Sequence record: PP355091.1 | Strand: one strand, 5' to 3' | Length of the DNA: 64,000 bases | Source of the DNA: Escherichia phage 235Ecol030PP | Shown: piece after piece, positions 17,534 to 41,723 of the stretch | Numbering within the stretch: the stretch's first letter is position 1 | How the letters are laid out: each line of letters opens with the position of its first letter | Made by a program: the position numbers and the translations under genes | The notes under the pieces: model-generated | Seen by the model: the letters and a program-made list of their open reading frames with translations, nothing else | Database searches by the model: none | What the model was told of the DNA's origin: nothing

Positions 17534-18442
17534 TTAAGATTTAAGTAAATCAACAATTTTAATTAATTTTTCACGTTCAGATTTAGCTTTACTACTCAAT
17601 CCAGATAGTCTGAAAATTTCATCATCATATTGCTGAATAGAAATATTTAGCTCTTCAATCTGCTTATTAAAATAAGCAATTTGTTCAGAATGTTTTTCAT
17701 TACTGCGAACTGGTACAGGTTTTGTAGGTAATTTAGATGAACTGGATTCATCCGGGCGATAAATTAAAATACAATTTGAACCAATCGGACATTTAGCACC
17801 AGACACATATTCTAATGTTCCGGCTTCTTTTAAAACTTCAAAAGCTAAACAGAGATGATGCCCCATATTAACATAATCTGTAGAGCGAGCTCTGATGTAA
17901 TAATCATCTCCACGAGTACTAAATTTAAAGCATTTAAGGTCTTCTGTATTATTAGTTTTAAAAATCATTTGTTTATCTAGACCTTTAGCTAATCGAGCGC
18001 CTAATGCTAATAATCGTCGTTGATTTTCCCACAAATCCGCAATCATTTGGTCAAATGATAATTTCGGCATTAGTCGACCATAAAGGTCGTATCCTTTATT
18101 ATAATTGCGAAGGATTTCACTCGCGTTAATGCGAGACAACGCTCCAATTTTATTAAGGGCTTTCATGATGCGATTAGATAAACCCATTCCAGACCCGTTT
18201 GTTCGTTGTAAATGTTTATCTAATCCAAACCCAATATCAACTTTAAATTTATCTAAAATTTCAGCATGAACATCTCTGTCAATAACATTCAAATCCAAAG
18301 TTGGGTTAAATCTATGAAAAAATTTATCTGGCTCTCCACGACGAAGTACAGTCCATTCATTCAATTTTTTATTAACTAAAGATTTAATTACTGCATTGAC
18401 ATTATTAATTACTACTGACATATTTTCCTCACTCAATTTCAA
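17534..18442 (-). CDS. Hypothetical protein with C-terminal coiled coil
   Basis: 302 aa; C-terminus IAYFNKQIEELNISIQQYDDEIFRLSGLSSKAKSEREKLIKIVDLLKS. Confidence 0.5.
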   Translation of the reverse strand: MKLSEENMSVVINNVNAVIKSLVNKKLNEWTVLRRGEPDKFFHRFNPTLDLNVIDRDVHAEILDKFKVDIGFGLDKHLQRTNGSGMGLSNRIMKALNKIGALSRINASEILRNYNKGYDLYGRLMPKLSFDQMIADLWENQRRLLALGARLAKGLDKQMIFKTNNTEDLKCFKFSTRGDDYYIRARSTDYVNMGHHLCLAFEVLKEAGTLEYVSGAKCPIGSNCILIYRPDESSSSKLPTKPVPVRSNEKHSEQIAYFNKQIEELNISIQQYDDEIFRLSGLSSKAKSEREKLIKIVDLLKS

Positions 18443-18836
18443 TTTTACTAAATATACAGAATAAGATGGAACAGACTATATAAGCACCACACACAGATTG
18501 AACTAATACCATTCCAAAGAACCAAACAATATTATCAAACAATGTCTGTTTTACGTCGAAAGGACGTAAACTTACAGTAATATTATCGTCTTTTTCTATT
18601 GAAGAATACATCTCTGGGGAAATATATTCACTAAATCTATAACCGTCTTTGAGTTCATATACGGCAATAAACGATAAACTAGACCCCTTTCCTTGAGTTC
18701 CTGTAAGGGTATTAACTACAGTAACATCATAATCTTTATAATGCATATAATCATTAATTGCGTAATAACCATATGCAACTACTACACATAAACAACATAT
18801 CAATAAATTCAATCTTTTAATTATCAACTGTTTCAT
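18429..18836 (-). CDS. Membrane protein, hypothetical
   Basis: 135 aa; N-terminal and C-terminal hydrophobic segments. Confidence 0.45.
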   Translation of the reverse strand: MKQLIIKRLNLLICCLCVVVAYGYYAINDYMHYKDYDVTVVNTLTGTQGKGSSLSFIAVYELKDGYRFSEYISPEMYSSIEKDDNITVSLRPFDVKQTLFDNIVWFFGMVLVQSVCGAYIVCSILFCIFSKIEIE

Positions 18837-26985: not shown

Positions 26986-27174
26986 TTAGTCCTTAGTTAA
27001 ATTTTCTAAATATGTTTCTAAATCATTTTCAGCTTTATCGATAGATTTTACTAATTCGTAATATGTTTCGGCATCTCCATATTCAGAAGATATTTCAAAA
27101 GACAAATCCTTTTCTAAACTAATAATTTCACCAACTAAAAATAATATTTCGTTCTTTTGTTCGCGAGTAATCAT
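26986..27174 (-). CDS. Small acidic helical protein, hypothetical
   Basis: 62 aa; similar to neighbour 27171-27356. Confidence 0.4.
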   Translation of the reverse strand: MITREQKNEILFLVGEIISLEKDLSFEISSEYGDAETYYELVKSIDKAENDLETYLENLTKD

Positions 27175-27356
27175 AAGGAATTTATATAATCAATGAGTTC
27201 TTGTTCTTTATTATCAAATTCTTTGGAAAGTTCTTCATATTCATTTGCGCTAAAAGGACCGCATTCATTACAAACTTTTTCCAATTCACTATTTTTATCC
27301 ATAATTTCGTGGATAAGAGAAAAGAGTTTGTCTTTTTGTTCTTTGCTTAGGCTCAT
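27171..27356 (-). CDS. Small acidic helical protein, hypothetical
   Basis: 61 aa; shares EQK..L..L..EI pattern with neighbour. Confidence 0.4.
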   Translation of the reverse strand: MSLSKEQKDKLFSLIHEIMDKNSELEKVCNECGPFSANEYEELSKEFDNKEQELIDYINSL

Positions 27357-27526: not shown

Positions 27527-27735
27527 TTTGGTTTACCTTCTTTAACGAAATCAGGATAAGGATAAAATCCTGAATAAAATCCTTCACCTTTATGATTGAT
27601 GCATCCTTTATTAGAACAATAGCACCAATAATCGAAATCACAAGCCATTTCATCGTTGCATAAAGCAAAAACAACCGGCCACTTACACTTTTCACAGTGG
27701 GCATTTTTAAGAATACTAGTTTGGCTCATAACCAT
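27523..27735 (-). CDS. Cys-rich small protein (possible metal-binding), hypothetical
   Basis: 70 aa with 9 Cys (CEKCKW...CDFDYWCYCSNKGC). Confidence 0.45.
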   Translation of the reverse strand: MVMSQTSILKNAHCEKCKWPVVFALCNDEMACDFDYWCYCSNKGCINHKGEGFYSGFYPYPDFVKEGKPK

Positions 27736-27953
27736 GTCACCTTTAAGCAGTATTCTTCTACATGTTGTTTACGACCTTTCTTATCAATAAAGGTATATTC
27801 AACGAATGTTCCAATGTAGTCTTTATCTACATCATGTGGACTATTAATTGGACATTTAGTACGGCAAATGCGTTCCCATTGACGAATAATTACTGCTTTG
27901 TTTTTAGGATCAAACGGATGTGGATAATGTATATTCATAATAATGGTTCCCAA
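27726..27953 (-). CDS. Hypothetical protein
   Basis: 75-aa ORF. Confidence 0.45.
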   Translation of the reverse strand: MGTIIMNIHYPHPFDPKNKAVIIRQWERICRTKCPINSPHDVDKDYIGTFVEYTFIDKKGRKQHVEEYCLKVTWL

Positions 27954-28402
27954 TCAACAATCACAATTTCTAATTTAGAGGAATATGCATCTAAAATCCC
28001 CTCAATAATATCCCAGTTCCCTTTACCTATGCCTGCACCAATCCTAGGCATATAGATTGTAGGTTTAATTAGTTTATTTTCACCAAACTCATTTAATTCT
28101 AACATACAATTCATTAAAGCGGAATACTCAAAATTTGGCCCTGGCTGAAATTGAGTATAAAGGTTGAAGCAATACGCTTTATGAGTCCTAAAGTATTTTT
28201 CATAAACTGAGTAAGAACCGAGTTTAGTTACATCACCCCATTCAGTCTGTAATTTATCAGCTTCCAAAATTTTAGGGAAAGCTTTGGTTAATTGACCCGC
28301 TACGCCTGAACCCATAGTATGAAAACAATTGCATCCATGCGCAATATTTTTACCTTCAGCGAAAAGGGCGACAATATCGCCCTTGATATATTTTACAATC
28401 AT
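27935..28402 (-). CDS. Macrodomain protein, TARG1/DarG-like (putative ADP-ribosyl hydrolase)
   Basis: 155 aa; GDIVALFAEGKNIAHGCNCFHTMGSGVAGQL and YMPRIGAGIGKGNW resemble TARG1-type macrodomain motifs; from recalled motifs, not a search. Confidence 0.5.
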   Translation of the reverse strand: MIVKYIKGDIVALFAEGKNIAHGCNCFHTMGSGVAGQLTKAFPKILEADKLQTEWGDVTKLGSYSVYEKYFRTHKAYCFNLYTQFQPGPNFEYSALMNCMLELNEFGENKLIKPTIYMPRIGAGIGKGNWDIIEGILDAYSSKLEIVIVDWEPLL

Positions 28403-28746
28403 CTAGTACTCAATCCTCGATTATAAGAATCTACCAAACGGTCAACCATTGAATGACAAGCGGCTTTATCTTTCTCCTCCGCAACTGAACATTCTAAAGT
28501 ATTCCACTTTTTAGCATATCGTTTTAACAATGTATAGTTTTTGTATCTGCTTGATTTATCCCTTTCTCCGTCTTTATATGCATATATTAATTTCTGTGCA
28601 AATTCAGCTTGGCATGCTTTATTTTTCCCACAATAATCTGCCGCAGTGCGGTTTACATATTCTCTAATTTCAGTATATGATGTATCTGCTGACGCAGAAG
28701 CAGAAAATGAAATTAATCCTATACATAAAACTAAAATTTTAGTCAT
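28399..28746 (-). CDS. Secreted or lipoprotein-like protein, hypothetical
   Basis: 115 aa; N-terminal signal peptide MTKILVLCIGLISFSASASA. Confidence 0.5.
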   Translation of the reverse strand: MTKILVLCIGLISFSASASADTSYTEIREYVNRTAADYCGKNKACQAEFAQKLIYAYKDGERDKSSRYKNYTLLKRYAKKWNTLECSVAEEKDKAACHSMVDRLVDSYNRGLSTR

Positions 28747-29284
28747 TTACTATTTCCAAAAGTTTATTATTTTTAAGGTAATTAGCCTTTTCTAGGACTT
28801 CAGAAGCATATTTAGAACCAGCTTTAACATTCCATCCCGAATTATAAGAGGATATTGCTTTTCTTATATCGCCCTTATGTATATTTAACCAATAAGAAAG
28901 TTCAATGTACGCCCAGGAAGCTGAATTGGATCGTTTATTCAACATTCTTTTTATTTCAGCATCGGTCATATTATAACCAAGTTCCTTAACTCTTGCTCGC
29001 ATAGTAGGCAAATAATTTTGGAACATTCCGTAGGCGTGATGCTTTGGTTTAGATTTTAAATTAACTCCGCCAGAGCTTTCTTGCCATAAAATGGCTGCCA
29101 TTATATGACCTAATCCGCTCTTGTGGATATTTTTGTGTGTTTTATATTTTCCATCCTTAGAAAATTGTTCCCCGAATTGATACGCGTAACGCATGTTATC
29201 GAGTTGGACATTACTGAAAGTATGCTCGGAGCTATGTGCCATCATTGAAATGGCCAATAGACCAGCGAGTAGTGCTTTTCTCAT
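28739..29284 (-). CDS. Periplasmic lytic transglycosylase-like protein (SLT domain)
   Basis: 181 aa; signal peptide MRKALLAGLLAISMMAHS; SLT motifs WQESSGG, AYGMFQ, YNSGWN. Confidence 0.55.
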   Translation of the reverse strand: MRKALLAGLLAISMMAHSSEHTFSNVQLDNMRYAYQFGEQFSKDGKYKTHKNIHKSGLGHIMAAILWQESSGGVNLKSKPKHHAYGMFQNYLPTMRARVKELGYNMTDAEIKRMLNKRSNSASWAYIELSYWLNIHKGDIRKAISSYNSGWNVKAGSKYASEVLEKANYLKNNKLLEIVND

Positions 29285-29291
29285 GCTTACC

Positions 29292-29753
29292 TCATTGAGT
29301 TTTAATTACTGCTTTAGAAGCCTTTCCTGGTAAACGACGACTGTTGATAATTGCCATCCTACATTGAAGTGACGGGTCTTTGAATTTCGCATTAGGTTTA
29401 CAAACTGTAAATCCAAGCCAAAGATTTCCATCTGTGATTTCTAAACGTCCAGGACGATATTCAACCCCATCAATAAAATCCTCGTCAATGTCAGGACGCG
29501 GAGGCATACTCAGGAATTCATTAACTTCTAAAACATGGTCTTTTATTTTATGGAATAATTCAAAAACATATGTCTCATCAATCTCCCGTTGAATTGCGCG
29601 ATCAAGAAGATGCTGAGAATATTTTAGATGAAACGATGAGACCCCTGCTGCTTTTGATGCCTCACGAATCTCATTGTTAATTTGACGAAACTCCGACTCA
29701 AAGTGACGACGAAGCTTATTTCGACGGATAAAAACTTCTGTATTGATAGTCAT
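29292..29753 (-). CDS. regB: Sequence-specific endoribonuclease RegB
   Basis: 153 aa, same length as T4 RegB; preceded by early promoter; assignment by recalled similarity and synteny. Confidence 0.8.
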   Translation of the reverse strand: MTINTEVFIRRNKLRRHFESEFRQINNEIREASKAAGVSSFHLKYSQHLLDRAIQREIDETYVFELFHKIKDHVLEVNEFLSMPPRPDIDEDFIDGVEYRPGRLEITDGNLWLGFTVCKPNAKFKDPSLQCRMAIINSRRLPGKASKAVIKTQ

Positions 29754-29781
29754 GTTATTCTCCTCTTAACTGATAGAAAAA

Positions 29782-29811
29782 TTATACCACAGTCAAGAGG
29801 AAAAGTAAACA
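29782..29811 (-). promoter_or_regulatory. T4-type early promoter upstream of regB
   Basis: -35 GTTTACT (29805-29811), 17-nt spacer, -10 TATAAT (29782-29787). Confidence 0.6.
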
Positions 29812-41159: not shown

Positions 41160-41575
41160 CCTTCATCAACAATAGTATGAGTGTGGGCATTTACAATTTG
41201 CCACCAATCAAAGCGATTAGAACCATACATTGGTTTGTTCTCATTTTCTTTAATGATATCACGGAGTTCATCTTCAGTAGCGGCTTTCGCGATTAAATCA
41301 GCATACCCACCGCGAGGATAATAATTATCACCCGCAAAAAGTAAAAAGTTCGGTTTAATATTATTGAACTCTTCAAGAGTAATAACTTTTCCTGTCGGTT
41401 GAACAATCTCTACATATTTATATCCTAATTTTTGAGCAGCATCTACTGCTTCAAGCAGGGTATCATGAGCCCATCCAATTTGGCAATCTGGCTTTTCAGA
41501 TGGATTAGCCTGATAATCCGCGTACACTTTATACATTCTATTCACCTTTAGAAATTTTATCCATAACGATAGCAA
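41156..41575 (-). CDS. Hypothetical protein
   Basis: 139-aa ORF; start may be internal (MYKVYADYQ). Confidence 0.45.
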   Translation of the reverse strand: MLSLWIKFLKVNRMYKVYADYQANPSEKPDCQIGWAHDTLLEAVDAAQKLGYKYVEIVQPTGKVITLEEFNNIKPNFLLFAGDNYYPRGGYADLIAKAATEDELRDIIKENENKPMYGSNRFDWWQIVNAHTHTIVDEG

Positions 41576-41723
41576 TTAAACCAATTAAAAATGCTACTAC
41601 AAGTGAAAATACATTTTCTGCTGTAGTTAATAATCCGCATATAAATCCAACAAACATTGAAAAACTAAATGCAGAAGCAGAAATTGCAATAGCAACATTT
41701 CGAATTAATTCACAACGTTTCAT
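41538..41723 (-). CDS. Small membrane protein, hypothetical
   Basis: 61 aa; two hydrophobic segments. Confidence 0.4.
   Translation of the reverse strand: MKRCELIRNVAIAISASAFSFSMFVGFICGLLTTAENVFSLVVAFLIGLIAIVMDKISKGE

What the first reader, a model, noticed from the sequence alone, without database searches (positions are those of the whole stretch)
28399..29284. Early-region pair of exported proteins: a signal-peptide protein and a periplasmic SLT-type lytic transglycosylase
ORF 28739-29284 has a signal peptide and the SLT motifs WQESSGG, AYGMFQ and YNSGWN. The adjacent ORF 28399-28746 also has a signal peptide. A periplasmic murein hydrolase expressed from the early strand is distinct from the endolysin and the gp5 tail lysozyme, and might act in superinfection exclusion, lysis timing or envelope remodelling.
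Basis: partly seen in the sequence, partly recalled or inferred. Interest (0 to 1): 0.4.

Follow-up and report, generated by a model that had tools for sequence, protein, structure and literature searches.

The report
T4 vs.1/vs: exported transglycosylase pair
These two adjacent genes are the known phage T4 genes vs.1 and vs: vs.1 encodes a small cell-wall-cutting enzyme exported to the periplasm early in infection, as was already suspected. The gene next to it has been labelled a cytoplasmic "valyl-tRNA synthetase modifier" for decades, yet it too looks like an exported, disulfide-bonded periplasmic protein.

Summary
The window is a T4-like phage, 98.6% identical to T4 over this stretch. ORF 28739-29284 (-) is T4 gene vs.1, with a protein 100% identical to the T4 product. 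ORF 28399-28746 (-) is T4 gene vs.

Both proteins have Sec-type signal peptides that are kept across their families. Vs also has four invariant cysteines in a four-helix fold. Published T4 data show early RNA and detected protein for both. A knock-down screen scored vs.1 "Semi-fit".

The SLT similarity of vs.1 was published in 2003 and 2006 and appears in GenBank records, so the core finding is already known. The physiological role is still untested.

The unexplained point is that Vs, annotated as a binder of cytoplasmic ValRS, has every mark of a periplasmic protein.

The parts
28739..29284 (-). vs.1 coding sequence (181 aa), a Sec-exported single-domain SLT/GH23-type lytic transglycosylase candidate
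29231..29284 (-). Vs.1 predicted signal peptide (aa 1-18, MRKALLAGLLAISMMAHS; cleavage after AHS or MMA is inferred)
   Evidence: Sequence. A hydrophobic N-terminus is kept in 74/77 clusters and 117/130 distant representatives. This segment has low pLDDT in the model.
28823..29104 (-). SLT domain match (aa 61-154)
   Evidence: Pfam PF01464, E=1.4e-5, 25.1 bits against a cut-off of 21.3.
29078..29080 (-). Codon GAA for Glu69, the predicted catalytic acid/base (motif I, E-S)
   Evidence: Invariant in alignment A1 and in 131/131 representatives. Aligned to Slt70 Glu478 (precursor residue 505) and MltE Glu64, and to the ES of EtgA and g-type lysozyme.
29018..29029 (-). Motif II, G86-M-F-Q89 (variant of the family-1 GLMQ motif)
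   Evidence: Read from the sequence. G86, F88 and Q89 are invariant among T4-like homologues.
28835..28846 (-). Motif III, Y147-N-S-G150 (family-1 AYNxG motif)
   Evidence: Y147 is kept in 129/131 and G150 in 130/131 representatives. Aligned to the YNAG of EtgA and the YNTG of g-type lysozyme.
28399..28746 (-). vs coding sequence (115 aa), annotated 'valyl-tRNA synthetase modifier'; predicted Sec-exported four-helix protein
   Evidence: ORF. T4 gene vs. PHROG 1256. AF2 pLDDT 83 with helices 22-39, 43-63, 70-86 and 91-112.
28687..28746 (-). Vs predicted signal peptide (aa 1-20, MTKILVLCIGLISFSASASA | D)
   Evidence: Sequence. All aligned homologues have small residues at -3 and -1 (AXA-type site) after the hydrophobic core. 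36/39 clusters are signal-like.
28456..28632 (-). Span holding the four invariant Cys codons of mature Vs: C39 (28630-28632), C45 (28612-28614), C86 (28489-28491), C97 (28456-28458), placed at the two helix-hairpin turns
   Evidence: Invariant in alignment A2 and present in essentially all 39 clusters. Disulfide bonding is inferred.
28739..28746 (-). 8-nt overlap of the vs.1 stop with the vs start (AAATGACTAA), suggesting translational coupling
   Evidence: Coordinates; sequence. Coupling is inferred.
29292..29753 (-). Context: regB, immediately upstream in the same transcription direction. The regB-vs.1 link is conserved across Straboviridae.
   Evidence: Pfam REGB_T4, E=1.4e-68. Synteny.
27935..28402 (-). 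Context: tk.4 (macro-domain protein), immediately downstream, with an ATGA overlap with vs
   Evidence: Pfam Macro, E=2.8e-6; coordinates.
29781..29809 (-). Promoter-like site upstream of regB (TTTACT-17-TATAAT with an extended TG). It is a candidate early promoter for regB-vs.1-vs-tk.4.
   Evidence: Consensus scan only. The scan found no more sites than shuffled sequence gives, so this is not evidence of function.

Best explanation
The locus is the T4-type gene pair vs.1 and vs. Both sit inside the tightly packed early-transcribed run regB-vs.1-vs-tk.4.

Vs.1 (shown unless marked): it is made as a 20.7-kDa precursor and predicted to be exported by Sec, leaving a soluble periplasmic protein of about 18.8 kDa. 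Export and cleavage are inferred from sequence. The mature protein is a single GH23/SLT lysozyme-like domain carrying the four family-1 lytic-transglycosylase motifs. The inferred mechanism is that of the family. Glu69 acts as the single acid/base, cleaves the MurNAc-beta-1,4-GlcNAc bond of murein, and the MurNAc C6-OH attacks to give a 1,6-anhydroMurNAc end. In size, export signal and sequence it is most like the small 'specialised' transglycosylases that open local gaps in the sacculus, such as EtgA.

Vs: it is co-transcribed and probably translationally coupled. It is predicted to be exported as well, giving an 11.1-kDa basic four-helix protein held by two disulfides.

Physiological role (inference, low confidence): limited, local murein remodelling in the infected cell that modestly improves phage fitness. 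It is more likely tied to envelope, superinfection or lysis-inhibition biology than to terminal lysis. Vs may act as a periplasmic partner or modulator.
For: Identity:
- The stretch is 98.6% identical to T4 in DNA, and T4 annotates vs.1, vs, regB and tk.4 there.
- The Vs.1 protein is 100% identical to the T4 product.

Enzyme family:
- Pfam SLT match above cut-off.
- E69, S70, G86/F88/Q89 and Y147/N148/G150 are invariant among 28 T4-like homologues.
- Across 131 representatives at 50% clustering, E69 is kept in 131/131, S/T70 in 131/131, Y147 in 129, G150 in 130 and Y159 in 130.
- 32 of 49 distant members hit Pfam SLT on their own.
- hhalign places E69 on Slt70 Glu478 and MltE Glu64.
- A profile of distant members hits EtgA at E=1.3e-5 and g-type lysozyme at 0.015, with the ES and YNxG motifs in register.

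Export:
- Signal-like N-termini are conserved in both families while their sequence drifts.
- Such N-termini are rare in the window, 5 of 144 ORFs.
- The four Cys of Vs are invariant and sit at helix-hairpin turns.
- Full-length His-tagged Vs expressed in the E. coli cytoplasm was insoluble (PMC8076793).

Expression: T4 vs and vs.1 are classed 'early-RNA, middle-protein', and both proteins were detected (PMC9697503 supplement).

Fitness: T4 vs.1 scored Semi-fit (0.81, p=0.099) in CRISPRi-ART, while vs, regB and tk.4 were Not fit (PMC11879866 supplement).

Breadth: homologues occur in 2045 phage records spanning Straboviridae, Ackermannviridae and Felixounavirus.
Against: - No enzymatic, localisation or mutant data exist for this protein in the literature I could search.
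- Single-sequence and A1-profile searches of PDB sequences were not significant. The hhalign E-values were weak (0.15-0.29). The Foldseek E-values were only about 1e-2.
- GH23 also contains true hydrolases (g-type lysozyme) and chitinases. Lytic-transglycosylase chemistry rather than hydrolysis is inferred, not shown.
- The Semi-fit call is by definition not statistically significant. The Felixounavirus-type homologue in phage SUSP1 was below threshold (1.02 against 1.2).
- Vs is absent from most phages that have Vs.1 (795 against 2045 records), so Vs.1 does not need Vs.
- The classical literature assigns Vs a cytoplasmic partner, ValRS.
Confidence: 0.75

Rival explanations
1. Vs.1 is an auxiliary or back-up lysis enzyme, or a lysis-timing factor. 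It would pre-weaken the sacculus from the periplasm so that final lysis by holin T, endolysin E and the spanins is faster.
For: It is a murein-cleaving enzyme candidate already located in the periplasm. In Felixounavirus the homologue sits next to rIIA/rIIB and about 1.2 kb from the spanin genes. The holin gene t is also Semi-fit in the same screen.
Against: It is expressed early. An unrestrained periplasmic lysin made early would be harmful. In the same screen, knock-down of endolysin e (-0.83) and of the spanins (about -0.2) gives no positive score, so vs.1 does not behave like the terminal-lysis genes. From established T4 genetics (my own knowledge), e mutants fail to lyse, so Vs.1 cannot replace E.
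Confidence: 0.15
2. Vs.1 acts in superinfection biology, either exclusion or the lysis-inhibition signal. It would modify murein or periplasmic content so that secondary phages are handled differently, alongside Imm, Sp and RI.
For: Its periplasmic location and early timing match those of Sp and RI. In the MOI-10 CRISPRi-ART screen the envelope and superinfection genes give positive scores of similar size to vs.1. imm is Fit. rI scores 0.62 with three guides above 2. rIII scores 0.64.
Against: The evidence is purely correlative and sub-significant. No mechanism links a lytic transglycosylase to exclusion. T4 in fact blocks the incoming gp5 lysozyme through Sp (my own knowledge), which is the opposite logic. 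Homologues exist in phage families whose exclusion systems are uncharacterised.
Confidence: 0.12
3. Vs.1 is not an enzyme. It would be a lysozyme-fold murein-binding or regulatory protein that has lost catalysis.
For: Its similarity to characterised lytic transglycosylases is weak. Motif II is GMFQ rather than GLMQ.
Against: The catalytic Glu-Ser pair is invariant in 131/131 representatives, and motifs II to IV are kept. That pattern is what purifying selection on an active site would leave.
Confidence: 0.05
4. Vs is, as annotated, the cytoplasmic tau factor that binds host valyl-tRNA synthetase. Its hydrophobic N-terminus would be non-functional, inefficient, or serve dual localisation, and the four Cys would not form disulfides.
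For: This is the standing annotation. Mature Vs would be 11.1 kDa with pI 9.0. That is close to the roughly 10-kDa factor I recall from the 1970s biochemistry, which I could not retrieve.
Against: Signal peptides with AXA-type cleavage sites are kept in 36/39 family clusters, and the four Cys are invariant. There is no in-frame internal start codon near residue 20 that could give a cytoplasmic isoform (sequence). The Cys spacings C-x5-C and C-x10-C, lying in helices, are not a zinc-knuckle pattern. A size near the mature form implies signal-peptidase processing, which happens only after export.
Confidence: 0.3
5. The Vs.1 N-terminus is a signal-anchor-release (SAR) domain, as in P1 Lyz or phage 21 R. 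The enzyme would stay membrane-tethered and inactive until the membrane is depolarised.
For: It is a phage muralytic enzyme with an N-terminal hydrophobic segment that contains Gly, Ala and Ser.
Against: The hydrophobic core is only about 13 residues (ALLAGLLAISMMA) and is followed by a small-residue cleavage site. In homologues the segment varies in length and sequence the way cleavable signal peptides do. The gene is early, not part of a late pinholin cassette.
Confidence: 0.05

Closest known systems
Phage T4 gene vs.1 (NP_049725; ORF 61.4; PHROG 600)
   Same: The protein is 100% identical and lies in the same regB-vs.1-vs-tk.4 context. The SLT similarity was noted in the T4 genome review and in Nolan et al. 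2006 (PMC1524935). Several GenBank records annotate it as 'lytic transglycosylase' or 'SLT domain-containing'.
   Different: Nothing differs; it is the same gene in a close T4 relative. The function is still uncharacterised: 'purely unknown function' in PMC11879866.
Specialised secretion-system lytic transglycosylases (EtgA of the EPEC type III secretion system; IagB/IpgF/VirB1-type)
   Different: Vs.1 is encoded in a phage early region, not in a secretion-system operon. No homologue was found in 72,556 plasmid records or in the bacterial genome scan. At the position of EtgA's second acidic residue (the D60N site of PDB entry 4xp8), T4-type Vs.1 has Ala84. No known trans-envelope machine partner exists.
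E. coli family-1 lytic transglycosylases (Slt70, MltE/EmtA, MltC, MltD, MltF)
   Different: Identity is only about 13-21%. Vs.1 has no lipoprotein anchor, superhelical domain or LysM module. Motif II reads GMFQ.
T4 endolysin E and the gp5 tail lysozyme (T4-lysozyme type)
   Same: They are murein-cleaving enzymes of the same phage, and both are present in this window.
   Different: They belong to a different family and use different chemistry (hydrolase). E is cytoplasmic until the holin fires, and gp5 is part of the virion. Vs.1 is Sec-exported and made early.
T4 Vs / tau factor, 'valyl-tRNA synthetase modifier' (NP_049724; PHROG 1256; Pfam PF26829 in precomputed tables)
   Same: The window's 115-aa ORF is this gene. 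It is 100% identical to RB14 Vs and 97% identical to the main Vs protein cluster (P0078).
   Different: The predicted biology does not fit the name: a conserved cleavable signal peptide and four invariant Cys against a cytoplasmic ValRS partner.
Small periplasmic phage or host proteins that control muralytic enzymes (T4 Spackle, Ivy, MliC/PliC, PliG, T6SS immunity proteins such as Tsi3)

Membership tests
SLT domain / family-1 lytic transglycosylases (Pfam PF01464, GH23) | Match to the family HMM above the curated gathering score | tested here: met
   25.1 bits against a cut-off of 21.3, E=1.4e-5, aa 61-154. 32 of 49 distant family members also match.
SLT domain / family-1 lytic transglycosylases (Pfam PF01464, GH23) | Motif I: catalytic Glu followed by Ser, at the end of a helix | tested here: met
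   E69-S70. E69 is kept in 131/131 and S/T70 in 131/131 representatives. It aligns to Slt70 E478, MltE E64 and the ES of EtgA.
SLT domain / family-1 lytic transglycosylases (Pfam PF01464, GH23) | Motifs II (GLMQ), III (AYNxG) and IV (conserved Tyr downstream) | tested here: met
   G86-M-F-Q89 (a variant), S146-Y-N-S-G150 and Y159. All are conserved and in register with EtgA and g-type lysozyme.
SLT domain / family-1 lytic transglycosylases (Pfam PF01464, GH23) | Lysozyme-like GH23 fold | tested here: met
SLT domain / family-1 lytic transglycosylases (Pfam PF01464, GH23) | Reaction: non-hydrolytic cleavage giving 1,6-anhydroMurNAc products | not testable with these tools
   This needs purified protein, sacculi and HPLC-MS. 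GH23 also contains hydrolases and chitinases.
Specialised secretion-system lytic transglycosylases (EtgA/IagB/IpgF/VirB1 type) | Small single-domain enzyme with a Sec signal peptide, with sequence relatedness | tested here: met
Specialised secretion-system lytic transglycosylases (EtgA/IagB/IpgF/VirB1 type) | Encoded with, and dedicated to, a trans-envelope secretion, pilus or flagellar apparatus | tested here: not met
   The neighbours are regB, vs, tk.4 and tk in a phage early region. No plasmid or bacterial-genome homologues were found.
Sec/SPase I-exported proteins (both Vs.1 and Vs) | Positively charged n-region, uncharged hydrophobic h-region of about 10-15 residues, small residues at -3 and -1 | tested here: met
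   Seen by inspection and a simple rule. Conserved across the families. SignalP was not available. Actual cleavage and localisation are not testable here.
SAR endolysins (P1 Lyz, phage 21 R) | N-terminal signal-anchor-release domain of roughly 18-20 weakly hydrophobic residues without a cleavage site, in a late lysis cassette with a pinholin | tested here: not met
   The h-region is about 13 residues and is followed by AHS|S. The gene is early. Its neighbours are not lysis genes.
T4 Vs (valyl-tRNA synthetase modifier) family, PHROG 1256 / PF26829 | Sequence membership | tested here: met
   PHROG 1256, E=8e-39. 97-100% identity to T4-type Vs proteins.
T4 Vs (valyl-tRNA synthetase modifier) family, PHROG 1256 / PF26829 | Cytoplasmic location, as needed to bind ValRS in vivo | tested here: not met
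   A conserved cleavable signal peptide in 36/39 clusters, four invariant Cys, and no internal start codon. This is a prediction only.
T4 Vs (valyl-tRNA synthetase modifier) family, PHROG 1256 / PF26829 | Physical binding to, and stabilisation of, host ValRS | not testable with these tools
   The classical biochemistry and the basis for assigning vs to ORF 60.9 could not be retrieved. In the 1986 sequence record this ORF is unnamed.
Periplasmic inhibitors of muralytic enzymes (Spackle, Ivy, MliC, PliG, Tsi3) | Sequence or fold similarity of Vs to a known inhibitor family | tested here: not met

The most novel reading that the evidence does not exclude
The protein carried in hundreds of phage genomes as the 'valyl-tRNA synthetase modifier' (T4 Vs) is really a Sec-exported, disulfide-bonded periplasmic protein. 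It would work in the envelope, plausibly as a partner or regulator of the Vs.1 transglycosylase encoded immediately upstream. The classical ValRS association would then reflect one of three things: mixing of compartments after cell breakage, a minor mislocalised pool, or a mis-assignment of the genetic vs locus to ORF 60.9. Together the pair would form an early periplasmic murein-remodelling module that affects infection fitness.
Probability: 0.25. Interest if true: 0.7.

Novelty: already known. Interest (0 to 1): 0.38.

Why it matters
T4 is the reference phage, yet about a third of its genes have no known function. vs.1 is one of five genes of "purely unknown function" that scored as fitness-relevant in the first genome-wide knock-down screen (PMC11879866).

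Reading it as an early, exported lytic transglycosylase gives that screen hit a concrete hypothesis that can be tested with a single E69Q point mutant. The family is large. It occurs in 2045 phage records across Straboviridae, Ackermannviridae and Felixounavirus. It has about 420 clusters at 50% identity. It is often mislabelled "RegB endoribonuclease".

Separately, the conflict between the name of Vs and its predicted export bears on a 50-year-old textbook item and on the annotation of about 800 genomes.

None of this changes the fact that the core observation, an SLT domain in vs.1, is already in the literature.

Tried and rejected
Searches that gave little or nothing:
- Single-sequence searches of PDB sequences gave only chance hits for both proteins.
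- The profile of close homologues (A1) gave only a weak g-type lysozyme hit against PDB sequences. A profile of distant members (A4) was needed to reach EtgA.
- hhalign against single Slt70 and MltE sequences aligned the catalytic Glu correctly but without significance.
- The fold search for Vs gave only generic helical bundles. The afdb50 library was unavailable.
- tblastn of Vs.1 against plasmids found nothing. The bacterial-genome scan with A1 found nothing. A4 was too diverse to be used for that scan.
- NCBIfam had no model for either protein.

Literature:
- The T4 genome review and the 1975 Marchin paper are not held, so I could not learn how vs was assigned to ORF 60.9.
- Several text searches for "vs.1" returned mostly clinical "vs. 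1" noise.

Ideas rejected:
- Lipoprotein. There is no lipobox; the only N-terminal Cys of Vs, C8, is not conserved and is preceded by Leu.
- SAR endolysin. The hydrophobic core is too short and a cleavage site follows it.
- A zinc site formed by the four Cys of Vs. The spacing is atypical, the Cys lie in helices, and a signal peptide is present.
- An internal start giving a cytoplasmic Vs. No in-frame ATG, GTG or TTG lies near residue 20.

One artefact: representative hit P0131 (2679 aa, 18 matched stretches) is a repetitive, unrelated protein, so it is a false positive.
Full report
**What is there.** ORF listing shows two minus-strand ORFs exactly at the reported coordinates: 28739-29284 (181 aa) and 28399-28746 (115 aa). 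They lie in a dense run of minus-strand genes. The two ORFs overlap by 8 nt. The second overlaps the next gene by an ATGA.

The region is 98.6% identical to phage T4 and 99.3% identical to the T4 relative ADUt. In T4 the two ORFs are vs.1 (NP_049725) and vs (NP_049724, "valyl tRNA synthetase modifier"). They are flanked by regB upstream and tk.4 downstream. Pfam confirms RegB and a macro domain for these neighbours. The window's Vs.1 protein is 100% identical to the T4 product (H26). Its Vs is 100% identical to the RB14 protein.

**Vs.1 is an SLT/GH23-type enzyme candidate.**
- Pfam SLT matches aa 61-154 at 25.1 bits against a gathering score of 21.3.
- In 28 homologues of 40-98% identity, E69, G86/F88/Q89 and Y147/N148/G150 are invariant.
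- An exhaustive profile search of 1.84 billion representative proteins finds 420 relatives, mostly 160-200 aa. One of them, P0131, is a repeat-protein artefact.
- In 131 full-length members, E69 is kept in 131/131 and S/T70 in 131/131. Y147, G150 and Y159 are kept in at least 129.
- hhalign places E69 on the catalytic Glu of Slt70 (precursor residue 505, mature Glu478) and on MltE Glu64. The match is in register but statistically weak.
- A profile of 49 distant members hits EtgA at E=1.3e-5 and a g-type lysozyme at 0.015, again with ES and YNxG in register. 32 of those 49 hit Pfam SLT individually.
- The AlphaFold model (pLDDT 88) matches only GH23 structures at the top of Foldseek.
- At the position of EtgA's second acidic residue, T4-type Vs.1 has Ala84. 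That fits a single-Glu lytic transglycosylase better than a lysozyme, but the chemistry is inferred.

**Both proteins look exported.** Vs.1 begins MRK-ALLAGLLAISMMA-HS|S. Vs begins MTK-ILVLCIGLISFSASASA|D.

A crude rule (charged n-region, uncharged hydrophobic core, small residues at -3 and -1) passes 5 of 144 ATG-ORFs in the window. Those five include these two and the known periplasmic protein RI. The feature is conserved while its sequence drifts, which is the usual signature of a signal peptide. It is kept in 74/77 Vs.1 clusters, in 117/130 distant Vs.1 representatives and in 36/39 Vs clusters. The exceptions among the Vs.1 and Vs clusters are truncated ORFs.

Homologues from Felixounavirus, Ackermannviridae and an Aeromonas phage also start with such a segment.

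The Vs family is small: 39 clusters, all from T4-like phages. It has four invariant cysteines. In the model (pLDDT 83) these sit at the turns of two helical hairpins in a four-helix protein. That suggests two disulfides.

Mature Vs would be 11.1 kDa with pI 9.0. Mature Vs.1 would be 18.8 kDa with pI 9.7.

**Expression and phenotype from the literature.**
- In T4, vs and vs.1 are "early-RNA, middle-protein", and both proteins were detected (PMC9697503 supplement).
- In the CRISPRi-ART screen, vs.1 scored 0.81 (K-S p=0.099), "Semi-fit". It is named among five Semi-fit genes of "purely unknown function". vs (0.35), regB and tk.4 were Not fit (PMC11879866 supplement). Semi-fit means above the effect threshold but not significant.
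- In the same data imm is Fit and t is Semi-fit. rI scores 0.62 and rIII 0.64, each with several strongly positive guides. Endolysin e (-0.83) and the spanins (about -0.2) are not positive.
- So vs.1 groups loosely with the envelope and superinfection genes rather than the terminal-lysis genes. This is a hint, not a result.
- The homologue in phage SUSP1 scored 1.02, below that phage's threshold of 1.2.
- Full-length His-tagged Vs expressed in the E. coli cytoplasm was insoluble (PMC8076793). That fits a protein that needs export and oxidation, though it is weak evidence.

**Distribution and context.**
- tblastn finds Vs.1 homologues in 2045 phage records. These cover Straboviridae of many hosts, Ackermannviridae (about 31% identity) and Felixounavirus (about 32%).
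- Vs occurs in 795 records, and every listed hit is a T4-like phage.
- No homologue of Vs.1 was found in plasmids or in the bacterial genome scan.
- The order regB-vs.1-vs-tk.4 holds in Tequatrovirus, Dhakavirus and Marfavirus.
- In an Aeromonas phage the slot between vs.1 and tk.4 holds unrelated ORFs, one with a lipoprotein-like signal. In a Slopekvirus that slot holds several ORFs annotated with signal peptides.
- In Felixounavirus the homologue follows rIIA and rIIB and lies near the spanins.

**Comparison with what is known.** The SLT similarity of vs.1 was reported in the T4 genome review and by Nolan et al. 2006, who suggested "some role in cell lysis" (PMC1524935). GenBank records already call it a lytic transglycosylase or SLT-domain protein. 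One record even notes a "lysozyme-like domain and a signal peptide". The core finding is therefore already known.

What remains open is the function. The best-supported statement is molecular: an exported, single-Glu, family-1-type lytic transglycosylase, closest to the small specialised enzymes such as EtgA. It is not a member of that functional class, because no secretion machine is associated with it.

**The loose end.** Vs is annotated everywhere as a modifier of cytoplasmic ValRS, yet it carries a conserved cleavable signal peptide and invariant cysteines. It has no internal start codon that could give a cytoplasmic isoform.

In the original 1986 sequence record this ORF (60.9) is unnamed. 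I could not retrieve the basis for the later assignment. The mature size of 11.1 kDa is close to the roughly 10-kDa factor I recall from the old biochemistry. If that recollection is right, it implies processing by signal peptidase, and hence export.

I see three possible explanations. The protein is dual-localised. The in-vitro ValRS association arises after cell breakage. Or the ORF assignment is wrong. I cannot decide among them with these tools.

**Verdict.** The finding is ordinary in the sense that it rediscovers an annotated T4 gene. It has moderate residual interest because the enzyme's role is untested despite a fitness signal, and because of the Vs localisation paradox.

Noticed in passing
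window 28399-28746 (-): The gene annotated 'valyl-tRNA synthetase modifier' (vs) has a conserved cleavable signal peptide and four invariant Cys. That is hard to reconcile with binding a cytoplasmic enzyme. The 1986 T4 record leaves this ORF unnamed.
   Followed up: partly
phage records (e.g. H45 NC_070779.1, H61 PV714136.1, H62 MW021757.1, H78 MT074474.1, H81 OL615011.1); UniRef names (P0008, P0038): Many Vs.1 homologues are annotated 'endoribonuclease', 'RegB' or 'RNA endonuclease'. This appears to be label spill-over from the neighbouring regB gene. They are SLT-type proteins.
   Followed up: partly
L009 2489-3040 (Aeromonas phage SW69-9): The deposited vs.1 CDS starts at 2621 and cuts off the signal peptide. 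The full ORF starts at 2489 (MRFLTILILLFTSHVFAG...).
   Followed up: yes
window 27726-27953 (-): An extra ORF of about 70 aa (MNIHYPHPFDPKNK...) lies between tk.3 and tk.4. It is absent from T4, where tk.3 and tk.4 abut, and present in phage ADUt. So the window is a T4 relative, not T4 itself.
   Followed up: partly
window 27935-28402 (-): tk.4 is a macro-domain protein (Pfam E=2.8e-6) whose start overlaps the vs stop codon (ATGA). It is often annotated 'phosphatase'. Its substrate and role, possibly ADP-ribose-related, are unknown.
   Followed up: no
L009 3356-3796; L010 3018-4807: In phages that lack vs, the slot between vs.1 and the macro-domain gene holds other, unrelated small proteins with signal, lipoprotein or transmembrane segments. 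This could be a variable cassette of envelope-targeted early proteins.
   Followed up: partly
L003 345-6259 (Escherichia phage adrianh, Felixounavirus): The Vs.1 homologue lies directly after rIIA and rIIB, before polynucleotide kinase, and about 1.2 kb upstream of the i- and o-spanin genes. The same order appears in phage SUSP1.
   Followed up: partly
window 18429-18836 (-) and 41538-41723 (-): Two further ORFs pass the crude signal-peptide or membrane-anchor rule (MKQLIIKRLNLLICCLCVVVAYG... and MKRCELIRNVAIAISASAFSFS...). Neither was identified.
   Followed up: no
window 26986-27356 (-): tk.1 and tk.2 (62 and 61 aa, acidic) look like paralogues of each other: both have an N-terminal '..EQK..LF.L..EI' stretch and an 'E..Y.EL.K..D..E..L..Y...L' stretch. 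They are also small ORFs within the interval where the genetic vs locus would lie, as I recall the genetic map.
   Followed up: no
protein P0131: A 2679-aa repetitive, Glu/Ser/Gln-rich protein scored E=1.7e-36 against the Vs.1 profile through 18 weak repeat matches. It is a false positive of summed repeat scores.
   Followed up: yes
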